Virus record (IMG/VR): IMGVR_UViG_3300018059_000011
Location: 20,544-84,543 of that record
Reading direction: 5' to 3' (one strand)
Source of the DNA: a virus
Length of the DNA stretch: 64,000 bases
Below, in pieces: positions 6,623 to 35,694 of the stretch (position 1 is the stretch's first letter; each line of letters starts with the position of its first letter). The position numbers and the translations under genes are program-made. Below the pieces are notes generated by a model. It had not been told where the DNA came from, searched no databases, and saw only the letters and a program-made list of their open reading frames with translations.

Positions 6623-7176
6623 TTTTTCATCGCAAACTGCCTGCGGGCGTGGCTCTGGTTTACCACATTGTTTCTCCCTCCGGTCGCGGGTATATCGGGG
6701 TTACGGGGCATTTGCGCCTGCGTCTTTGGCAGCATTTGAACTCCGAAACTTTCCTCGGTTCGTCTCTTCGTAAATACGGACTGGACGCCCACGAGATCAA
6801 GATTCTTGCGGTATTGCCAACAGAAGAAGCCTTCGCTCTTGAAGAACGCGCTGTCCTGGCCTTTGGTACTCTGGCGCCTCATGGTATGAATTTGTATCTC
6901 GGCGGACTCGGAGGCGCTCGCGCTTTGAAGGGGCGGGTGCTCCCCGAATCGGAGCGAGAGAAGCATCGTGGTTGGCGCCATGATGAAGGCACAAAAATGG
7001 TAATCGCTGAACGCGCTCGTGAACAGTGGGCTCCCTTTGCGAAGCCCAAGAAGAACGGTAAACCGAAGTCGCCGGAGCACCGGGCGAAGTTGGCGGCGCA
7101 TTTGGCGACGATGCGAAACGACCCTGCGAGGCTTGCTGGCCTTCGGGCGATTCATGCCATGAGGAGGGTCGCATAA
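6619..7176 (+). CDS. GIY-YIG homing endonuclease with NUMOD3-like tail
   Basis: LVY...YIG...LEERA...GMN; KSPEHRAKL. Confidence 0.85.
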   Translation: MIFHRKLPAGVALVYHIVSPSGRGYIGVTGHLRLRLWQHLNSETFLGSSLRKYGLDAHEIKILAVLPTEEAFALEERAVLAFGTLAPHGMNLYLGGLGGARALKGRVLPESEREKHRGWRHDEGTKMVIAERAREQWAPFAKPKKNGKPKSPEHRAKLAAHLATMRNDPARLAGLRAIHAMRRVA

Positions 7177-7649
7177 TGCCGGTTCAAGACACAGGCGAGG
7201 CTCGCGACCTCATCATTGGCGTTGCCCAGGCAGCTATCAATACGCTGTCGCCGACGCCGAAGGTGCTGTACGCCGACAAGTCGGATGAAGTCCCGAAGGA
7301 CGGAGATACTTGGATTCGTGTCGCCGCCGTCCATTTTGCGGGCTATAAGGCGTCGCTCGGAAATGCTCAGGGCAAGTCTCGATTCCGCAATCGTGGCATC
7401 GTTCGCGTTGAGGTCCACACGCCGTTTGGCGACGGGTATACCCTGAGCGACCAAATCACAACCGTCATCAAGAACGCCTTCAGGAAACGCAGTTCGAGCG
7501 CCGATAAGGTCTCGTTCAGCAATGTTCTCTCCACGGAACAGCCCTATACCAGCAGGCCGGAATCCTCAGTTGTCGGGCCGGAAAAGGGCGATGGAAATTG
7601 GACCAGGGTGGACGTTACCGCAGAGTTCGATTACGCGGAAGTGGTATGA
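7176..7649 (+). CDS. Tail terminator / tail completion protein
   Basis: WIRVAAVH...SLG...RFRNRGIVRVEVHTPFGDG pattern; upstream of tail tube. Confidence 0.78.
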   Translation: MPVQDTGEARDLIIGVAQAAINTLSPTPKVLYADKSDEVPKDGDTWIRVAAVHFAGYKASLGNAQGKSRFRNRGIVRVEVHTPFGDGYTLSDQITTVIKNAFRKRSSSADKVSFSNVLSTEQPYTSRPESSVVGPEKGDGNWTRVDVTAEFDYAEVV

Positions 7650-8248: not shown

Positions 8249-10611
8249 CTGCATTGACGAAGATCGACTCCAACGGCACGGGCCTTCGGTTCTGCGAGGA
8301 AGTCTCGCTCGGTGTGCTTTCGGCAACCGCCTCTCAAGTCTGGTATCCGGCTGAGCCCAACACCTACGACAATTTCGGCGGCCAGTTCAAGAAGGTCGCT
8401 CGGCGCCCCATCAATGCGTCGCGCCAGAATCGCAAGGGCGTGACCGTCGATCTCGACGCGGCTGGTGGCTACAACACCGATCTCACGCAGACCAATCTCA
8501 TCCGGTTGCTTCAGGGCTTCTTGTTCGCGGACGCCCGCGAGCCCTACGACAGCCAGTCGATCAACAATCAGGGCAGCGCCCTTACCGCCGTTGAAGATAG
8601 CGACGACACCTATCGTTTCTCCTACGGCAATGATCTCGACCGCGTGCTGGGGCAGAGCCTCGTGTTCGCCACCGATCTGGCAACGACCGCGAACAACGGT
8701 TTGAACGTAGTCAACTCGGTGACTCGCGCGCTCGCCGCCGGTACGCTGACGCTGACGCCCGGCGCAATCGTCGATGACGTTGTGGTTATCGACGGCGTGT
8801 ACTATCAGTTTGACGCCACGGTCACTGCGGGCTCTGGCACCGGCTTCGACCCCTACGTTGTGGACATCGGCGCGAACGACACCGAAGCCTTTGCCAATCT
8901 CGTGAAGGCGATCAATGCGACCGGCACACCCGGCACGGAGTATAGCTCCGCGCTTGTGAGCGCGCATCCGACTGTCGAAGCCATTTCCAGCAATGCGACC
9001 ACGATGGTCGTGAACGCCCGTAGCTACGGATACGCGGGCAACAGCATCGAGACCAGCGGCACCGGCAATGACGGCCTCGCTTGGGGCGGCACCACGCTCT
9101 CCGGCGGCACCGCGATGATCGACGTTGACGCGAGCCTCACCGACGAGACTGTCGATGACGACCACGCGGGAGGCACCCTGACCTTCACCGCTGGCGCAAT
9201 CGCCGATGACATCGTTGAAATCGACGGCGTGTTTTATCAGTTCGCGGCGGACCCCACCACGGGCACGCCGGATGGCTCCGAAGGCGATCCGTTCCTCGTC
9301 GATGTCGGCGGCACCGATACGATCTCGCTCGCCAATCTTCGCAAGGCGATCAACGCCACGGGCATCGCCGGAACGACCTATGCGGCGGAAGTCGTTGTCC
9401 ATCCGACTGTGACTGCGGTTTCGTCCGGTGCGACCACGTTGGTTGTGCGCGCGAAGGCTGCGGGTACGGACGGCAATGCAATCACGACTTCAGTCACGCT
9501 CTCCAGCACCGATGACGGCCTCGCTTGGGGCAGCACCAAGCTCTCCGGCGGCAACAACACTTCGGCCCGTGTCCGCGTGGTCGGTTATCAGTTCGCATCC
9601 TCCACCGTCGATGTGGTCGTGTCTTTCACGCATCCGAGAATCTCCCGCGCTTCCGGCGCTGTCGATTTCACTACGTTCGGTCTGGTCCCAGGCCAATTCC
9701 TCTGGGTTGGCGGCGATGTCTCTGGCAAGAAGTGGGTCAACGAGAACATGAATGGCTGGGCTCGCGTTCGCGAGGTCGGCGCCGCCTACATCGAGTTCGA
9801 CAAGACCTCGGCGGATTGGGCCGCTGAAACCGGCACCAGCTTGACGGTTCAAATCTTCTTCGGCGTGGTCCTCAAGAACGAGTCCGATCCTACGCTCATC
9901 AAGCGCCGGTCCTATCACCTGGAGCGCTCTTTGGGCTCGCCGGATGACGCCGACCTGACCGCGATCCAGAGCGAGTTGCTCACGGGCTCGGTTCCGAACC
10001 AGATGACCCTGGACTTCAAGACCGCCGACAAAGTGACGGTGGACTTGTCGTTCCTTTCGACCGATGACGTGCAGCGCACGGCCACGGAGGGCTTGCTCTC
10101 CCAGGCTGCGGTTCACGGCGGCGGCGCCGCTCCGGGCATCGTCAACGAAGACGCCTACAATACGTCGAACGACTTTTCGCGGCTGAAGATGGTCATCCTC
10201 GACCCGTTGGATTCCAGCCCGTCTCCGCTGTTCGCGTTCTTGCAGGATTTCAAGATCACGATCAACAACAACCTGAAGGCCAACAAGGCGATCTCTGTCC
10301 TTGGCGCCTTCGAGGTCACCGCCGGTCAGTTCGTTGTGACCGGGACGACCACGGCGTACTTCGCCGACATTGCTGCAATCGCCGCCGTTCGCAACAACAG
10401 CGACGTGAGCATCGACTTTGCGCTTTCTCGTGACAACGTGGGCTTCGCGGTCGATGTGCCGCTGATCTCGCTGGGCGACGGACGCGCTGACGTGAAGCAG
10501 GACGAAGCCATCATGCTGCCGTTGTCCATCGACGCGGCTGCCGACCGGCTTTTCGACTATACGATCCTGTTCGAGTTCTTCCCTTACCTGCCGGACGTTG
10601 CCGCCGAGTAA
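8245..10611 (+). CDS. Major tail tube protein with two tandem inserted domains
   Basis: KIDSNGTGLRFCEE...EPNTYDNFGGQ...RRPINASRQNRKG; inserts at 8734-9108 and 9166-9552. Confidence 0.88.
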   Translation: MTALTKIDSNGTGLRFCEEVSLGVLSATASQVWYPAEPNTYDNFGGQFKKVARRPINASRQNRKGVTVDLDAAGGYNTDLTQTNLIRLLQGFLFADAREPYDSQSINNQGSALTAVEDSDDTYRFSYGNDLDRVLGQSLVFATDLATTANNGLNVVNSVTRALAAGTLTLTPGAIVDDVVVIDGVYYQFDATVTAGSGTGFDPYVVDIGANDTEAFANLVKAINATGTPGTEYSSALVSAHPTVEAISSNATTMVVNARSYGYAGNSIETSGTGNDGLAWGGTTLSGGTAMIDVDASLTDETVDDDHAGGTLTFTAGAIADDIVEIDGVFYQFAADPTTGTPDGSEGDPFLVDVGGTDTISLANLRKAINATGIAGTTYAAEVVVHPTVTAVSSGATTLVVRAKAAGTDGNAITTSVTLSSTDDGLAWGSTKLSGGNNTSARVRVVGYQFASSTVDVVVSFTHPRISRASGAVDFTTFGLVPGQFLWVGGDVSGKKWVNENMNGWARVREVGAAYIEFDKTSADWAAETGTSLTVQIFFGVVLKNESDPTLIKRRSYHLERSLGSPDDADLTAIQSELLTGSVPNQMTLDFKTADKVTVDLSFLSTDDVQRTATEGLLSQAAVHGGGAAPGIVNEDAYNTSNDFSRLKMVILDPLDSSPSPLFAFLQDFKITINNNLKANKAISVLGAFEVTAGQFVVTGTTTAYFADIAAIAAVRNNSDVSIDFALSRDNVGFAVDVPLISLGDGRADVKQDEAIMLPLSIDAAADRLFDYTILFEFFPYLPDVAAE

Positions 10612-33170: not shown

Positions 33171-33569
33171 ATGAGCATTATCTCCGGTGGCCTGAGTCTT
33201 CTCACTGGTGGGGCGTCGTTCCTCAGTGGTGCGAAGTATTGGGTAATCGCCCTGGCCCTGGCTACGGCAATCGCCGGAGCCGCAGGCTACTACAAGGGAT
33301 ACACCAAAGCTACCGGCATTGCCGAGGACAAGCTCGTAGCCGCCCAGATGGAGATGTACAACAAGGGCGTCACTGCCCAGAAGAATTTCAGCGATCACCA
33401 GTTCGAGGTCGCGTCCAAGGACTTTAGCACCCGACTCGCCGCTCTCCAGAAGCAGAAGCAGAAGGTCATCACCATCACCGAGACGCTGCATGATCTCGTG
33501 CCGCAGGTCGCGGCCTGCACGGTGTCGCCAGCGGCGATGAAGGCCCTCAACGACGTGGTGACCGAATAA
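33171..33569 (+). CDS. Inner-membrane spanin (Rz-like)
   Basis: N-terminal TM, coiled coil, C-terminal Cys; lysis cassette position. Confidence 0.75.
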   Translation: MSIISGGLSLLTGGASFLSGAKYWVIALALATAIAGAAGYYKGYTKATGIAEDKLVAAQMEMYNKGVTAQKNFSDHQFEVASKDFSTRLAALQKQKQKVITITETLHDLVPQVAACTVSPAAMKALNDVVTE

Positions 33570-33874
33570 TGAACGCGAAATGGTATCTCCGGTTTATCGC
33601 GATCATGTCGTTCATGACGATGCTGACGGCTTGCGCGTCCACGCCCGATATTCCGTTGCCGCTGCCTCCGCAGTTGTGCAAACCCGCATCCGATCTCGTG
33701 GCGCCGAAGCATCTCAAGCGCGTCCCCGAAGTCGCGACCGAGAACGATCAGTTCTACTCGTTGTTCTTGATGGAACGCGCCGATCACGCCACGGACATCA
33801 AGGACTTCAATTCGTTGCTGCGGACCTGCGTCGATTCGACTTTGCCCGAGCACATTCCCGTTTTCGCCGATTAA
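33569..33874 (+). CDS. Outer-membrane spanin lipoprotein (Rz1-like)
   Basis: Lipobox LTAC followed by Pro-rich segment. Confidence 0.78.
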   Translation: MNAKWYLRFIAIMSFMTMLTACASTPDIPLPLPPQLCKPASDLVAPKHLKRVPEVATENDQFYSLFLMERADHATDIKDFNSLLRTCVDSTLPEHIPVFAD

Positions 33875-33886
33875 AGGACTACGCCC

Positions 33887-34153
33887 GTGGCCGACGACAT
33901 CAATTTTGAAGTACAGCGCACCCTCGGTCGTCTCGAAGGCGGACAGGAACAGATTCTTGACGAACTCAAGCGGTTGCGTGTGGACTTCAACGGCCATGTT
34001 GAGGCCGATGACAAACGCTTTGGCCGGATCGACGCTGATCGCAATAAGGCCAAGGGTGCGGGCTGGGCCATCCTCGGCATCTTCTCTGCGTGCATCACCT
34101 TCGTCGGCAGCGCCGTCCTCGCGGTATTCGAGGGCTGGGTGAAGTTCCACTAA
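33887..34153 (+). CDS. Holin-like / small membrane protein
   Basis: LGRLEG coiled coil plus C-terminal TM. Confidence 0.55.
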   Translation: MADDINFEVQRTLGRLEGGQEQILDELKRLRVDFNGHVEADDKRFGRIDADRNKAKGAGWAILGIFSACITFVGSAVLAVFEGWVKFH

Positions 34154-34240
34154 TGCGCGGCCTCCTCCGACAGCGACAATAAGACATATCCGATAATCTT
34201 CGCAGCTTTCGATAAGCTATGCCTTATCGCGACGCTTCGC

Positions 34241-34311
34241 TGGGGATTCGTCCAACGGTAGGACTCCGGGCTCTGAACCCGGCAATGCAGATTCGACTTC
34301 TGTGTCCCTAG
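34241..34311 (+). tRNA. tRNA-Gln(CTG); CTA follows the discriminator instead of CCA
   Basis: Acceptor TGGGGAT/GTCCCTA, D-arm GTCC/GGAC, anticodon arm CCGGG-CTCTGAA-CCCGG, T-arm GCAGA-TTCGACT-TCTGT. Confidence 0.9.
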
Positions 34312-34644
34312 CTAAGCGCCGTACTTCTCATTCCAATGAAATTTGCGATGGCAGTTTGAGCACAAAACATCGCACTTTGCGATCTCTGCGAGGATACTGG
34401 GTTTTCCTCTACCAGCGAGAACACCGTGCGTAATATCGAAAAGTTTGGAGAATGGATCACGGTGATGGAAGTCCAAGCAGGCCGGATGCGATTCGGGGCA
34501 ATGCGAGCATTTCAACTTAGCCCTCAACGCCTCGAACCATTCACGGATTTCTATTTTTCGGCTCCTGATTCTTTTGACCTCTGATACCCGATTACGAGCG
34601 TACCATCGGTTTTGGGCCTGAAGTTGTTTCGACCGATCTCTCAT
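34312..34644 (-). CDS. HNH endonuclease inserted at the tRNA 3' end
   Basis: CSHC...LDFHHRDP...EIAKCDVLCSNCHRKFH. Confidence 0.9.
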   Translation of the reverse strand: MRDRSKQLQAQNRWYARNRVSEVKRIRSRKIEIREWFEALRAKLKCSHCPESHPACLDFHHRDPFSKLFDITHGVLAGRGKPSILAEIAKCDVLCSNCHRKFHWNEKYGA

Positions 34645-34651
34645 GGCCCAA

Positions 34652-34680
34652 AAGATAGCCCATTCGTACCCTTAAGTCAA
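34652..34680 (-). promoter_or_regulatory. Promoter for the HNH gene (probably leaderless mRNA)
   Basis: TTGACT-17bp-TATCTT; ATG begins 8 nt after the -10. Confidence 0.65.
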
Positions 34681-34852
34681 GTCCGAATCCTGTGTCCCCA
34701 GCCAAGCGCCGCGATAACATATACGTTGTCGTCTTCACGGCTTTTGATAACGCAGATGTTGTCGGTGTCGCCGCCGTTATACTCACTTCGTCCATTTGCG
34801 GGTATAGCGGCCCCGTATCCGAATCTGGCCTCTTTGTGTCCTGATTAGCTTA

Positions 34853-35110
34853 TGGTGCTGTGCGGTTGCAAGTCTTTGGTGTCGTGCGGTTGCAAGTCTT
34901 TTGTGTTTCCCGAGCGGGGTCATTTCTCACTATCCCGTATCTCAGGGACGCGAAAGTTCCCGAGCGGGATCAAATTTGGCCGGTTGTTTGGCCGGTTCCA
35001 TGTCCGGTTTGAGAAATGCGCTAAAGGCGTAGTCTGGCTACGCTTTCGGGGCATCTTCCTAAACCGGGTGTCCGGTAGAATGTCCGCTTTTGGCCGGTTC
35101 TTTGGCGGTT
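34853..35110. repeat. Non-coding short-repeat region between the convergent arms
   Basis: 24-bp tandem TGGTG(CT/TC)GTGCGGTTGCAAGTCTT x2; TTCCCGAGCGGG x2; TTTGGCCGGTT x3. Confidence 0.7.
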
Positions 35111-35247
35111 CATCGACACGTCCGGGCGTCATGTCGTCGGCGACGACATCAGAGGCTCTAGGAAGGCCGCTGGCGGGCTCCATTTTTGGGATGGACCACG
35201 CGCCGGGGACGGGCCGGACCCAGCCACGGCCCGGCTCTGCCTGGGTT

Positions 35248-35694
35248 TCAGACCTTCTTGACCATCTTCCAGGCGGCGATCCCGTCGTCGTAGTAGTCCT
35301 TGATGGTCTTGGCCCGGTAGAAGCCGTACCGGCGGTAAAAGCGGATGCCCTGGTCATTGGTTGCGTTGACGTGCAGGCTCACGTCCTGGTGCCCCCAGCG
35401 CCGGGCGCAGGCCACAGCCTGATCCATGAGCCGCTGGCCCCAGCCTGTACCCTGAGTTTGCCGGGCGACCGCGAGGTTGGCAACATAGGTGCCGATCCCG
35501 TGCTTGCCCGAGTTCTCGACAAAGATGTATCCCCGGATGCTGCCGCGCTCGTTAACGAGCACGTACCGGCGTTGGTTGACGGGGTAGCACCGCATCGACG
35601 CCCACGATTGCGGGTCGGGGAACGTCAAGTCCAGGCGATGGACCGCCATTGCGTCGCGCTTATGGAATGCTCTGATACGAAGTTGTTCGGTCAC
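35248..35694 (-). CDS. GNAT acetyltransferase (RimI-like)
   Basis: LAV...QGTGWGQRLM...LHVNATN...FYRRYGF...YYDDG. Confidence 0.9.
   Translation of the reverse strand: MTEQLRIRAFHKRDAMAVHRLDLTFPDPQSWASMRCYPVNQRRYVLVNERGSIRGYIFVENSGKHGIGTYVANLAVARQTQGTGWGQRLMDQAVACARRWGHQDVSLHVNATNDQGIRFYRRYGFYRAKTIKDYYDDGIAAWKMVKKV

What the first reader, a model, noticed from the sequence alone, without database searches (positions are those of the whole stretch)
34241..34711. Same strategy at a tRNA: antisense HNH cassette replaces the tRNA-Gln 3' end with a structure-preserving recoded copy
Seen: 34291-34321 and 34681-34711 are 25/31 identical and flank a 390-bp unit with an HNH gene and its own promoter (TTGACT-17-TATCTT, probably leaderless). 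The stranded downstream copy looks mostly canonical (G53/C61, perfect CCCCA acceptor strand, CCA end). The copy attached to the tRNA has a compensatory A53-U61 pair, a G-U in the acceptor stem, and CCA changed to CTA, which is exactly the HNH stop codon on the other strand. No integrase is visible in the window. Inference: this is the RNA-gene equivalent of the polymerase event, done by a different HNH subfamily. The tRNA would need host CCA addition and faces antisense transcription.
Basis: partly seen in the sequence, partly recalled or inferred. Interest (0 to 1): 0.8.

Follow-up and report, generated by a model that had tools for sequence, protein, structure and literature searches.

The report
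Nuclease gene rebuilds the tRNA it split
A small selfish DNA-cutting-enzyme gene sits inside this uncultured phage's glutamine tRNA gene and keeps the tRNA whole by supplying its own copy of the tRNA's last third, leaving the original end unused 390 bases downstream.

Summary
tRNA-Gln(CUG) lies at 34241-34311. A 110-aa HNH gene lies antisense at 34312-34644. A second, diverged copy of tRNA positions 53-76 plus 7 trailer bases lies at 34681-34711. It is 25/31 identical to the attached copy, the best match in the window.

New evidence that 34291-34680 is an insertion: the 31 bases before the tRNA pair, in register with the acceptor stem, with the trailer behind the downstream copy (23 Watson-Crick + 2 G-U of 31). 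This is the best of about 64,000 registers.

The 84.5-kb record has no integrase.

The HNH belongs to a family that sits beside tRNA genes:
- 62 of 120 unique IMG/VR loci have a tRNA within 100 nt.
- 58 of 78 cellular-genome loci do.
- 4 of 4 cultured phages inspected do.

The same layout recurs:
- In an unrelated phage at tRNA-Met, stacked twice.
- In Pyrinomonadaceae chromosomes, where relatives show empty sites.

Best reading: a free-standing homing endonuclease cassette that carries a replacement tRNA 3' end. It resembles fungal mitochondrial mORFs and SegB.

Not shown:
- cleavage;
- an HNH-less allele of this phage;
- that the recoding is more structure-preserving than chance (p 0.08-0.29).

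This scan had already noted the layout on other DNA. My five targeted searches found no paper describing it.

The parts
34210..34240 (+). tRNA leader. It is complementary, in register with the acceptor stem, to the trailer behind the stranded copy.
   Evidence: 23 Watson-Crick + 2 G-U of 31, best of all registers in the window; the next best is 20. Reported as inverted repeat I1.
34241..34311 (+). tRNA-Gln(CUG), present hybrid allele. Positions 1-52 are resident; positions 53-73 come from the cassette. CCA is not encoded (CTA instead).
   Evidence: ARAGORN; Rfam 48.8 bits; cloverleaf is the MFE at -25.4 kcal/mol.
34291..34321 (+). Attached copy (A) of tRNA positions 53-76 plus 7 trailer bases. 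Its last bases also encode, antisense, the final two codons and the TAG stop of the HNH.
   Evidence: 25/31 identical to 34681-34711; read directly.
34291..34680 (.). Inferred 390-bp inserted cassette: replacement tRNA 3' end, HNH gene and promoter-like site.
   Evidence: Bounded by the two copies. The direction of the event comes from the leader-trailer pairing.
34312..34644 (-). HNH endonuclease gene, 110 aa, intact.
   Evidence: PHROG HNH E 4.6e-23. All 16 invariant columns of the 33-sequence family alignment are present. 488 homologues were found.
34652..34680 (-). Sigma-70-like promoter match TTGACT-17-TATCTT. It lies 7 nt before the ATG and abuts the stranded copy.
   Evidence: the count is no higher than in shuffles. 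The analogous locus L172 has TTGCCA-17-TATCAT in the same position.
34681..34711 (+). Stranded copy (B): the original tRNA 3' end, with G53, C61, a perfect acceptor strand and CCA, but C55.
34701..34731 (+). Native trailer. It pairs with the leader at 34210-34240.
   Evidence: The reconstructed precursor folds with this extended stem at -67.0 kcal/mol, z -4.6.
34728..34751 (+). Terminator-like hairpin plus T run directly behind the native trailer. Probably the end of the original tRNA transcription unit.
   Evidence: pattern match only.

Best explanation
The 390 bases 34291-34680 are a free-standing homing-endonuclease cassette inserted into the phage's tRNA-Gln(CUG) gene at about tRNA position 52/53, on the 5' side of the T loop. 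The cassette has three parts: (i) its own version of tRNA positions 53-76 plus 7 trailer bases, (ii) an antisense HNH nuclease gene whose stop codon is the antisense of positions 74-76 (CCA changed to CTA), and (iii) a promoter-like site.

The resident 5' two-thirds of the tRNA joined to the cassette's 3' third still make a cloverleaf tRNA, so the insertion costs little. The original 3' end, with its trailer and terminator, is left unused behind the cassette.

Inferred mechanism:
- The nuclease cuts HNH-less tRNA alleles in or near the T arm, as the unrelated SegB enzyme does.
- The break is repaired from an HNH-bearing genome.
- The first event used homology on the tRNA side only (one-sided, illegitimate repair), which created the duplication.
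- Later spread can use the tRNA 5' part and the stranded copy as two homology arms.
- The changed T-arm bases may protect the filled allele from re-cutting.
- The mature tRNA must get its CCA from the host enzyme.

Shown here: the anatomy, the direction of the insertion, the tRNA association of the nuclease family, and recurrence of the layout, including filled and empty sites in another lineage.

Inferred only: cleavage, the target site, the repair route, immunity, and expression.
For: 1. The repeat is real and unique in the window.

2. The leader is complementary in exact register to the trailer of the downstream copy (23 WC + 2 G-U of 31). The trailer of the attached copy matches only through the duplicated 11 nt (9/11) and is then random.

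3. Both alleles are tRNA-Gln by ARAGORN. The reconstructed allele passes to -ps113 and the present one to -ps110. Cloverleaf MFE is -29.0 and -25.4 kcal/mol respectively.

4. A G2-U71 wobble and an A53-U61 pair sit in the allele that is in use, while the unused copy pairs perfectly. This fits a hybrid of resident 5' and foreign 3' parts.

5. No integrase or resolvase is found in the record.

6. The HNH is intact, with all family-invariant residues.

7. The family is tied to tRNA genes:
- 4 of 4 cultured-phage homologues inspected lie in tRNA clusters.
- 62 of 120 unique IMG/VR loci have a tRNA within 100 nt of the ORF.
- 58 of 78 cellular-genome loci do.
- A random 333-nt ORF in this genome would do so 2.2% of the time.

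8. The same layout occurs elsewhere:
- Locus L025/L172: tRNA-Met, antisense HNH, stranded 3' copy (22/25, z 9.9). This is followed by a second antisense HNH of another family (Pfam HNH_2, 24.9 bits) and a third 3' copy (22/26, z 8.9).
- Pyrinomonadaceae loci L184 and L182 (z 11.3 and 8.9). In L184 the HNH stop TAA is again the antisense of tRNA positions 74-76.

9. Filled and empty sites at the orthologous Pyrinomonadaceae tRNA-Met locus: 5 of 11 loci encode CCA and have no HNH. 6 of 11 have TTA or TCA instead, and 4 of those 6 have the HNH. The trailer behind the stranded copy resembles that of an empty site.

10. Precedents:
- SegB recognises the T-psi-C motif and cuts the 3' parts of tRNA genes (PMC2330249, passages read).
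- One-sided homing by illegitimate repair occurs in T4 (review PMC2988022, passage read).

11. Two other HNH genes in this genome are also bracketed by diverged repeats.
Against: - No HNH-less allele of this phage was found. The phage collection has no DNA match. Exact-word scans of viral and metagenome contigs gave nothing related. The contigs of four runs showed no joint across the cassette.
- The foreign origin of the attached copy is not shown. Its 7 trailer bases are identical to the native ones, which fits a closely related donor but equally a local paralog.
- The recoding is not significantly structure-preserving (p 0.08-0.29).
- Both copies carry one rare feature each: A53-U61 in the attached copy and C55 in the stranded copy.
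- The promoter match is no better than chance counts.
- No Pfam HNH model reaches threshold, and the only solved relative is a weak match to McrA (E 0.016).
- In L172 the first HNH has an in-frame TAG, so at least that copy may be dead.
- In L184 the stranded copy pairs less well with the tRNA 5' half than the attached copy does (read). The 'stranded = better partner' argument is therefore specific to the window.
- Locus counts are de-duplicated only for identical sequence, so related genomes inflate them.
Confidence: 0.8

Rival explanations
1. Local tandem duplication first, HNH second. The leader-tRNA-trailer unit was duplicated in tandem. An HNH gene then replaced the stretch from 7 nt behind the first copy's CCA to position 52 of the second copy. 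On this reading the attached 3' end is native, not brought in.
For: - Homing endonucleases can drive tandem amplification of tRNA segments (SegB; PMC13096335, sections 7 and 9 read).
- The 7 trailer bases behind both copies are identical.
- HNH genes flanked by two full same-isotype tRNAs exist: tRNA-Gln(ttg) and tRNA-Gln(ctg) in L014, and two tRNA-Gly in L103.
Against: - It needs two events plus a deletion.
- The copy in use would have to have acquired a rare A53-U61 pair and a G-U wobble, while the unselected copy kept perfect pairing.
- No trace of a second leader or 5' half lies before the stranded copy. At the 390 offset the identity to the left of the repeat is low.
- A break point at or near position 52/53 recurs in the unrelated phage locus L172; in the Pyrinomonadaceae locus L184 the copies' similarity starts slightly further 5', in the variable loop.
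Confidence: 0.1
2. Relic of integrase-mediated integration. The two copies are attL and attR of a decayed integrative element, and the HNH is a passenger.
For: tRNA 3'-end replacement with a displaced native end is the classic signature of integration at tRNA genes (established knowledge). The copies share an identical 9-nt block.
Against: - No tyrosine or serine recombinase is found in the 84.5-kb record.
- The unit is only 390 bp and is filled by one intact gene.
- The same nuclease family sits at tRNA ends in 62 of 120 viral and 58 of 78 cellular loci.
Confidence: 0.03
3. The HNH is a fixed, non-mobile gene. It might be a domesticated nuclease, or a source of antisense RNA that regulates the tRNA. 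The duplication would be an old scar with no present role in mobility.
For: - The gene is convergent with the tRNA, so its transcript would be antisense to it.
- No polymorphism for the cassette was seen in the contigs of four runs.
- Old homing genes commonly persist after fixation (review PMC2988022, passage read).
Against: - All invariant family residues are intact.
- The family is patchy between related genomes: 4 filled and 5 empty Pyrinomonadaceae sites.
- Contigs drop rare variants, so says little.
Confidence: 0.05
4. Chance similarity: the downstream 31-mer merely resembles the generic T-arm motif shared by all tRNAs.
For: T-arm motifs are shared by all tRNAs. Several flank matches in other loci were only tRNA-to-tRNA similarity.
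Against: - The match includes the gene-specific acceptor strand, CCA and 7 trailer bases.
- It is the best in 64 kb.
- It is followed by a trailer complementary to the leader.
Confidence: 0.01

Closest known systems
SegB of phages T4 and T6 (free-standing GIY-YIG homing endonuclease in the tRNA gene cluster). PMC2330249: abstract and passages read. PMC13096335: abstract and sections 7, 9 and 10 read.
   Same: - A selfish nuclease gene lives among phage tRNA genes.
- It recognises the conserved T-psi-C stem-loop motif.
- It cuts in the 3' parts of tRNA genes.
- It is statistically associated with tRNAs across phages.

Here the duplication starts at the T arm, and the HNH family is likewise tRNA-associated.
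   Different: - The nuclease fold differs (GIY-YIG, not HNH).
- segB sits between tRNA genes, not inside one.
- No replacement tRNA end or stranded native end is described in the parts I read.
- Cleavage is shown for SegB and is not shown here.
Mobile endonuclease ORFs (mORFs) of fungal mitochondria that carry a foreign gene 3' end: Allomyces macrogynus atp6; Glomus sp. atp6, atp9, cox2 and nad3 (PMC3630166, passages read).
   Same: The architecture is the same: gene body, inserted diverged 3' end, endonuclease ORF, then the native 3' end stranded downstream. The hybrid gene is the functional one.
   Different: - The targets there are protein-coding genes and the nucleases are LAGLIDADG or GIY-YIG.
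- The ORF is co-directional and often in frame.
- Here the target is an RNA gene, so 'recoding' must preserve base pairing rather than codons.
- Here the nuclease gene is antisense, with its stop codon inside the tRNA's CCA position.
HNH genes in phage tRNA clusters: T5 F-TflI/II/IV (named in a PMC2330249 passage) and mycobacteriophage cluster HNHs (PMC6409571, passages read).
   Same: HNH-type nuclease genes are embedded in tRNA gene arrays and are proposed to spread tRNA genes.
   Different: In the passages read they are described as intergenic residents of clusters. No tRNA gene is described as split and rebuilt by the cassette.
Integration of temperate elements into tRNA genes (attP carries the tRNA 3' end; established knowledge; a haloviral example in PMC7230728, passages read).
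   Same: The incoming DNA restores the tRNA 3' end and the native end is displaced.
   Different: That process needs a site-specific recombinase and an identical core. Here there is no recombinase, the cassette is 390 bp, and the copies have diverged.
[quoted passage not shown] Seen only as a citation and summary in the review PMC2988022.
   Same: A break is repaired with homology on one side only, with a junction at microhomology on the other. It was proposed as the route by which homing elements reach new sites.
   Different: It was demonstrated for an intron in a laboratory system. Here it is only inferred as the origin of the duplication.

Membership tests
HNH (beta-beta-alpha-Me) nucleases | Significant match to curated HNH sequence profiles | tested here: inconclusive
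   PHROG HNH families match strongly (phrog_3106 E 4.6e-23, phrog_2255 E 2.8e-22). No Pfam family reaches its cut-off and no NCBIfam family does. The family profile finds only McrA among solved structures, at E 0.016.
HNH (beta-beta-alpha-Me) nucleases | Catalytic His...Asn...His motif with two CxxC zinc-binding pairs | tested here: met
   C46, C49, H60, H61, C95, N97, C98 and H99 are invariant in 33 family members and present in the window protein. That these are the catalytic and zinc-binding residues is my reading from general knowledge of HNH enzymes.
HNH (beta-beta-alpha-Me) nucleases | Beta-beta-alpha-metal fold | not testable with these tools
Free-standing homing endonuclease genes | Patchy presence: filled and empty sites at orthologous loci of related genomes | tested here: inconclusive
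   For this phage no relative was found. For the same nuclease family in Pyrinomonadaceae, 4 tRNA-Met loci carry the HNH and 5 are empty, out of 11 loci with a tRNA-Met.
Free-standing homing endonuclease genes | The enzyme cuts the empty allele at or near the insertion site and not the filled allele | not testable with these tools
   This needs a cleavage assay.
Free-standing homing endonuclease genes | Recurrent association of the family with one class of conserved target | tested here: met
   A tRNA lies within 100 nt of the ORF in 62 of 120 unique viral loci and 58 of 78 cellular loci. The random expectation in this genome is 2.2%.
Gene-end-replacing endonuclease cassettes (mORF-like layout) | The endonuclease ORF is bracketed by two diverged copies of the host gene's end | tested here: met
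   25/31 identity at an offset of 390.
Gene-end-replacing endonuclease cassettes (mORF-like layout) | The attached copy completes a functional-looking gene | tested here: met
   ARAGORN and Rfam both call the present allele a tRNA. The cloverleaf is its MFE structure. Actual function was not tested.
Gene-end-replacing endonuclease cassettes (mORF-like layout) | The stranded copy is the native end | tested here: met
   Leader-trailer complementarity in register. A terminator-like site follows it.
Gene-end-replacing endonuclease cassettes (mORF-like layout) | The attached copy is of foreign origin | tested here: inconclusive
   The hybrid signature (G2-U71, A53-U61) points that way. No donor or relative is available, and none of the other tRNA-Gln(CUG) genes fetched is close.
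Integrase-borne integrative elements at tRNA genes | A site-specific recombinase in the element or genome | tested here: not met
   PF00589 and PF00239 give 0 matches in the 84.5-kb record, and the controls respond. The record is estimated 87% complete.

The most novel reading that the evidence does not exclude
One widespread family of about 110-aa HNH homing endonucleases specialises in tRNA genes across phages, bacteria, CPR bacteria and DPANN or halophilic archaea. It can enter the gene itself, without an intron, by carrying the half of the tRNA it displaces.

- A 3' third comes with an antisense nuclease gene whose stop codon overwrites the CCA (window, L172, L184).
- A 5' half comes with a co-directional nuclease gene (L208, L236).

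Repeated invasions would leave stacked fossil ends (L172). They would make hybrid tRNAs, move tRNA halves between genomes, and erase genomically encoded CCA. On this reading the elements shape how tRNA genes evolve, and are more than a curiosity of one phage.
Probability: 0.55. Interest if true: 0.78.

Novelty: new variant of a known kind. Interest (0 to 1): 0.65.

Why it matters
Homing endonuclease genes are thought to need an intron, an intein or an intergenic site to avoid killing the gene they enter. Here the cassette enters an essential-type RNA gene directly and pays for it by bringing a spare part. That strategy is documented for fungal mitochondrial protein genes. I found no description of it for tRNA genes in my five targeted searches.

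If general, it would explain four things:
- orphan tRNA fragments beside HNH genes in phage and microbial genomes;
- hybrid tRNAs;
- loss of encoded CCA next to such genes (6 of 11 Pyrinomonadaceae tRNA-Met loci);
- why this nuclease family tracks tRNA genes.

It also offers small, natural nucleases that may be aimed at a very conserved DNA motif. And it provides a natural experiment on which T-arm changes a tRNA tolerates.

Tried and rejected
Searches for relatives of this phage that led nowhere:
- blastn of 33500-35500 against 50,697 phage records: no match.
- The neighbouring ligase found one IMG/VR relative (49% identity, L002), and it has no tRNA.
- The HNH as a single query found no IMG/VR relative; only the family alignment did.
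- An exact 24-mer of the stranded copy: 0 hits in IMG/VR.
- A 31-mer of leader plus tRNA start: 0 hits in JGI metagenomes.
- The 24-mer of the tRNA start: 1 hit, L087. It is an unrelated AT-rich contig that shares only those 24 bases.

Sequencing runs:
- X1 and X2 hold the stretch and may be its source.
- In the contigs of X2-X5 laid at 80% likeness, no joint across 34290/34681 was listed.
- X5 holds diverged copies of the leader plus tRNA start. It also has one 878-nt contig that joins 34684-34711 to 34811. I could not read that contig, so it says nothing either way.

Ideas rejected:
- A third copy of the tRNA end in the window. The D2 member at 35219-35233 shares only a short word.
- A decayed second nuclease gene in 34592-35357. 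0 PHROG hits for 4 ORFs.
- Wofford's two tRNA-Met genes flanking its HNH as duplicates. They are different tRNAs.
- A close relative among the other tRNA-Gln(CUG) genes fetched. There is none.
- Partial tRNA copies beside the paralog between tRNA-Cys and tRNA-His. None found (z <= 1.9).
- 'Structure-preserving recoding' as a statistical argument (p 0.08-0.29).
- Most flank-to-flank matches in other loci are only similarity between two full tRNAs.

- The look-up of encoding contigs, so the contexts of the closest homologues (up to 60% identity) were not seen.
- Structure prediction, so there was no fold test.

Malformed calls that I corrected and resent: 52, 94, 95, 102.

One translate call (99) was off by one base and was redone.

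Supplementary files of papers were not opened. The gene-neighbourhood tables of PMC13096335 might list HNH neighbours.

Rows dropped:
- L261 comes from an unpublished genome (G015) and has no tRNA called, so it is left out of the 11-locus count.
Full report
WHAT IS THERE

The window is bases 20544-84543 of an 84,543-base uncultured virus record. It is linear and estimated 87% complete. Runs that hold it are labelled freshwater sediment metagenomes.

Structural and lysis genes run on the + strand up to 34153. Replication genes run on the - strand from 35248 onward; these include a ligase (PHROG E 2.5e-57) and an acetyltransferase. The finding lies in the convergent gap between the two blocks.

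ARAGORN finds one tRNA in the window, tRNA-Gln(ctg) at 34241-34312. Rfam's tRNA model scores 48.8 bits against a gathering score of 29.

The only sizeable ORF beside the tRNA is 34312-34644 on the minus strand, 110 aa. It matches PHROG HNH families at E 4.6e-23 and 2.8e-22. No Pfam or NCBIfam model reaches its cut-off. A profile of the family finds only McrA among solved structures, weakly (E 0.016).

In an alignment with 32 homologues, 16 columns are invariant, and all 16 are present in the window protein. They include two CxxC pairs, the HH of 'DFHH' and 'NCH'.

THE REPEAT

34291-34321 and 34681-34711 are 25/31 identical (28 nt at 86%).
- No other place on the + strand matches as well.
- The best match on the - strand is 18/31.
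- 300 shuffles of the next kilobase never exceed 20.

In tRNA numbering the block covers positions 53-76 plus seven trailer bases. The six differences are as follows:
- 53 and 61: G-C in the downstream copy, A-U in the attached one.
- 55 and 59: both in the T loop.
- 71: G2-C71 in the downstream copy against G2-U71 in the attached one.
- 75: CCA against CTA.

CTA is the antisense of the ORF's TAG stop.

WHICH COPY IS NATIVE

This is the new evidence. The 31 bases upstream of the tRNA are complementary to the 31 bases behind the downstream copy. The pairing is in exact register with the acceptor stem: 23 Watson-Crick and 2 G-U pairs of 31. That is the best of all registers in the 64-kb window. 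The next best is 20; the mean is 7.9 and the sd 2.4.

Behind the attached copy, complementarity holds only through the duplicated part (9 of 11). It then falls to background, with 12 of 31 overall.

A precursor rebuilt in a script from the 5' part and the downstream copy folds into a cloverleaf on a long leader-trailer stem (-67.0 kcal/mol, z -4.6). A terminator-like hairpin with a T run follows at 34728.

So the downstream copy, its trailer and the terminator are the original end of the gene, and 34291-34680 came in later.

Both alleles are called tRNA-Gln by ARAGORN. The rebuilt allele survives a slightly stricter threshold: -ps113 against -ps110. Its cloverleaf is more stable: -29.0 against -25.4 kcal/mol, and both are the minimum-energy fold.

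Neither copy is wholly canonical. Among 350 distinct phage tRNAs from the fetched loci:
- The 53-61 pair is G-C in 338 and A-U in 2.
- Position 55 is U in 331 and C in 10.

The attached copy has the rare A-U pair. The stranded copy has the rare C55.

The claim that the recoding is 'structure-preserving' is true as a description. It is not improbable, though. Six random substitutions keep all 12 pairs in 8% of trials, or in 29% with the observed share of transitions.

The copy in use carries the wobble and the odd pair, while the unused copy pairs perfectly. This is what a hybrid of resident 5' and imported 3' parts would look like, and it is hard to explain by decay of a local duplicate.

NOT AN INTEGRASE EVENT

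Searches of the whole record for tyrosine recombinase (PF00589) and resolvase (PF00239) find nothing, while the control genomes respond.

THE NUCLEASE FAMILY FOLLOWS tRNA GENES

The protein has 488 homologues at E <= 0.001 among 493 candidates, at up to 60% identity.

Cultured phages. 243 records hold a relative, all below 60% identity. I inspected four: PHB09, PaoP5, HGTV-1 and Wofford. In all four the gene lies inside a tRNA cluster.

IMG/VR. Two scans with family alignments gave 160 loci, of which 120 are unique with a complete ORF. From:
- 67 have a tRNA within 1.5 kb.
- 62 have a tRNA within 100 nt of the ORF.
- 35 have a co-directional tRNA at the ORF's 3' end. In 22 of those the stop codon is tRNA positions 8-10.
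- 7 have a convergent tRNA, as in the window.

Species-representative cellular genomes. The family is also present here, in Pyrinomonadaceae, CPR bacteria, DPANN and halophilic archaea and others. Of 78 loci with a complete ORF, 75 have a tRNA nearby and 58 have one within 100 nt.

For scale, a random 333-nt ORF in this phage would lie within 100 nt of one of its three tRNAs 2.2% of the time.

These counts are de-duplicated only for identical sequence, so related genomes inflate them.

THE SAME LAYOUT ELSEWHERE

I compared the two flanks of every homologue.

Locus L025 (read in tRNA orientation as L172) comes from a 109-kb viral contig. Its HNH is 44% identical to the window's. In order, it has:
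- a complete tRNA-Met;
- an antisense HNH whose last 14 codons are antisense to the tRNA;
- a promoter-like TTGCCA-17-TATCAT;
- directly behind that, a stranded copy of the T arm, acceptor strand and CCA (22/25, z 9.9);
- a second antisense HNH of another family (218 aa, Pfam HNH_2 at 24.9 bits against a cut-off of 21), whose 3' end overlaps that stranded copy;
- a third copy of the tRNA-Met end (22/26, z 8.9).

No other place in the 7.3-kb locus reaches 20/30. This looks like two successive invasions of one site, each pushing the previous end downstream. The first HNH there has an in-frame TAG at codon 20 and may be dead.

In Pyrinomonadaceae genomes, L184 and L182 show tRNA-Met, an antisense HNH and a stranded 3' copy (z 11.3 and 8.9). 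In L184 the tRNA has TTA where CCA should be, and that TTA is the antisense of the HNH's TAA stop. This is the geometry of the window.

A mirror form also exists. A stranded 5' half lies upstream of a co-directional HNH that is followed by a complete tRNA. Examples are L208 (tRNA-Gln, z 12.6) and L236 (tRNA-Gly, z 6.5).

FILLED AND EMPTY SITES

No relative of this phage was available. I therefore used the chromosomal tRNA-Met locus of the L184 genome and 60 genomes of its family.

Among the 12 best loci, one was dropped: L261, from an unpublished genome, with no tRNA called. The other 11 hold the orthologous tRNA-Met:
- Five encode CCA, are followed by a hairpin, and have no HNH.
- Six have TTA or TCA instead of CCA. 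Four of these have the HNH downstream.

The trailer behind the stranded copy of L184 resembles the trailer of an empty site. There, however, it is the attached copy that is identical to the relatives' tRNA apart from the CCA, and the stranded copy is the diverged one. Sequence identity therefore does not tell native from foreign in that lineage.

MECHANISM

Established elsewhere:
- SegB, an unrelated GIY-YIG enzyme of T4 and T6, recognises the conserved T-psi-C motif and cuts the 3' parts of tRNA genes (PMC2330249, passages read; PMC13096335, section 9 read).
- In T4, a break with homology on one side only is repaired illegitimately at microhomology. This is a proposed route to new sites (review PMC2988022, passage read).
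- Fungal mitochondrial endonuclease ORFs carry a foreign gene 3' end and strand the native one (PMC3630166, passages read).

Inference for this locus. The HNH cuts HNH-less tRNA alleles near the T arm. The tRNA-side end copies the donor's 3' third, the nuclease gene and its promoter. The other end is then joined at about position 53, which duplicates the end of the gene. Once formed, the cassette can home with two arms.

The identical seven trailer bases suggest that the donor was a related locus.

Four of the six differences lie in positions 53-61, which would fit protection from re-cutting. That is speculation.

The tRNA needs CCA added by the host enzyme. The nuclease gene's transcript would run antisense into the tRNA. 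Neither point was tested.

CONTEXT IN THIS GENOME AND IN THE SCAN

The record holds three more relatives of this HNH at 37-39% identity. One lies between tRNA-Cys and tRNA-His. The HNH in the polymerase gene is not among the matches.

A self-comparison finds diverged direct repeats around three nuclease genes:
- the tRNA case;
- the polymerase case (75 nt at 73%);
- the paralog at C1 7354 (26 nt at 88%).

Earlier notes of this scan describe the same layout on at least seven other genomes, at tRNA-Leu, -Arg, -Ile and -Ser and at tmRNA. None shares this protein at the look-up's sensitivity. Those notes are unchecked leads, not evidence.

Five targeted literature searches found HNH genes in tRNA clusters and SegB. 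None found a description of a tRNA gene split and rebuilt by a nuclease cassette. The library is limited to open-access papers, and supplements were closed.

VERDICT

- The element is a new variant (RNA gene, antisense, CCA-overwriting) of two known kinds: tRNA-targeting homing endonucleases and gene-end-replacing endonuclease cassettes.
- Confidence in the insertion reading is about 0.8.
- Confidence in the specific target and the repair route is about 0.4.

Noticed in passing
IMG/VR loci, e.g. L010, L016, L023, L029, L035-L037, L043: 35 of the unique viral loci have a co-directional tRNA at the HNH's 3' end. In 22 of these the ORF has no stop of its own and ends at TAG or TAA formed by tRNA positions 8-10. 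RNase P processing of the tRNA would then cut the stop codon off the nuclease mRNA, which could be a built-in brake on expression.
   Followed up: partly
L172 4521-5710 (same contig as L025): Stacked invasions of one tRNA-Met: two different antisense HNH genes and three copies of the tRNA 3' end. The first HNH has an in-frame TAG at codon 20. The third copy keeps the 5' acceptor strand as well, so it resembles an acceptor-T-arm minihelix.
   Followed up: partly
L208 1415-1918; L236 1341-1883: A mirror layout in cellular genomes (a Planctomycetales MAG and a Pacearchaeota MAG). A stranded tRNA 5' half, with leader in L208, lies upstream of a co-directional HNH that is followed by a complete tRNA. 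In L208 the stranded half reads as a UUG anticodon and the complete gene as CUG.
   Followed up: no
L254, L256-L260, L263-L267 (Pyrinomonadaceae tRNA-Met locus): Encoded CCA is present in 5 loci, all without the HNH. It is replaced by TTA or TCA in 6 loci, of which 4 have the HNH. Two loci (L263, L266) have TTA and no HNH match, which may be footprints of a lost cassette.
   Followed up: partly
window 34853-35106: The non-coding stretch behind the stranded copy holds three repeat sets: a tandem 24-nt repeat (34853-34900, 92%), a 16-nt repeat 50 nt apart (34907 and 34957), and three copies of an 18-nt TTTGGCCGGTT-type word (34975, 34987, 35089). It may be an origin or a regulatory region between the two convergent gene blocks.
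   Followed up: no
G000 C1 1789-2046, 7354-7548, 9288-9737 (before the window): Three paralogs of this HNH at 37-39% identity. The one at 9288-9737 lies between tRNA-Cys (8858-8932) and tRNA-His (10264-10342), with no partial tRNA copy nearby. The one at 7354 is bracketed by a 26-nt repeat at 88% identity (7118-7143 and 7568-7593).
   Followed up: partly
I confirmed it only as a repeat.
   Followed up: partly
window 34168-34264 and 34684-35052, run X5: A 2025 sediment metagenome holds three diverged short contigs of the leader plus tRNA start. They continue into a different anticodon stem. It also has an 878-nt contig that joins the stranded-copy region to 34811, skipping 99 bases. These are probably relatives of this phage, and the best place to look for an HNH-less allele.
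   Followed up: no
L053 1790-1930: Behind the HNH lies a 47-nt tRNA-like remnant: a 5' start followed directly by a T arm. The word at the ORF end recurs about 100 nt downstream, in front of tRNA-Val. This is a messier scar of the same kind.
   Followed up: no
L016 1317-1341: A weak partial copy of the D arm to anticodon loop of tRNA-Gln(UUG) lies upstream of a co-directional HNH (z 3.0, p 0.01 in 100 shuffles).
   Followed up: no
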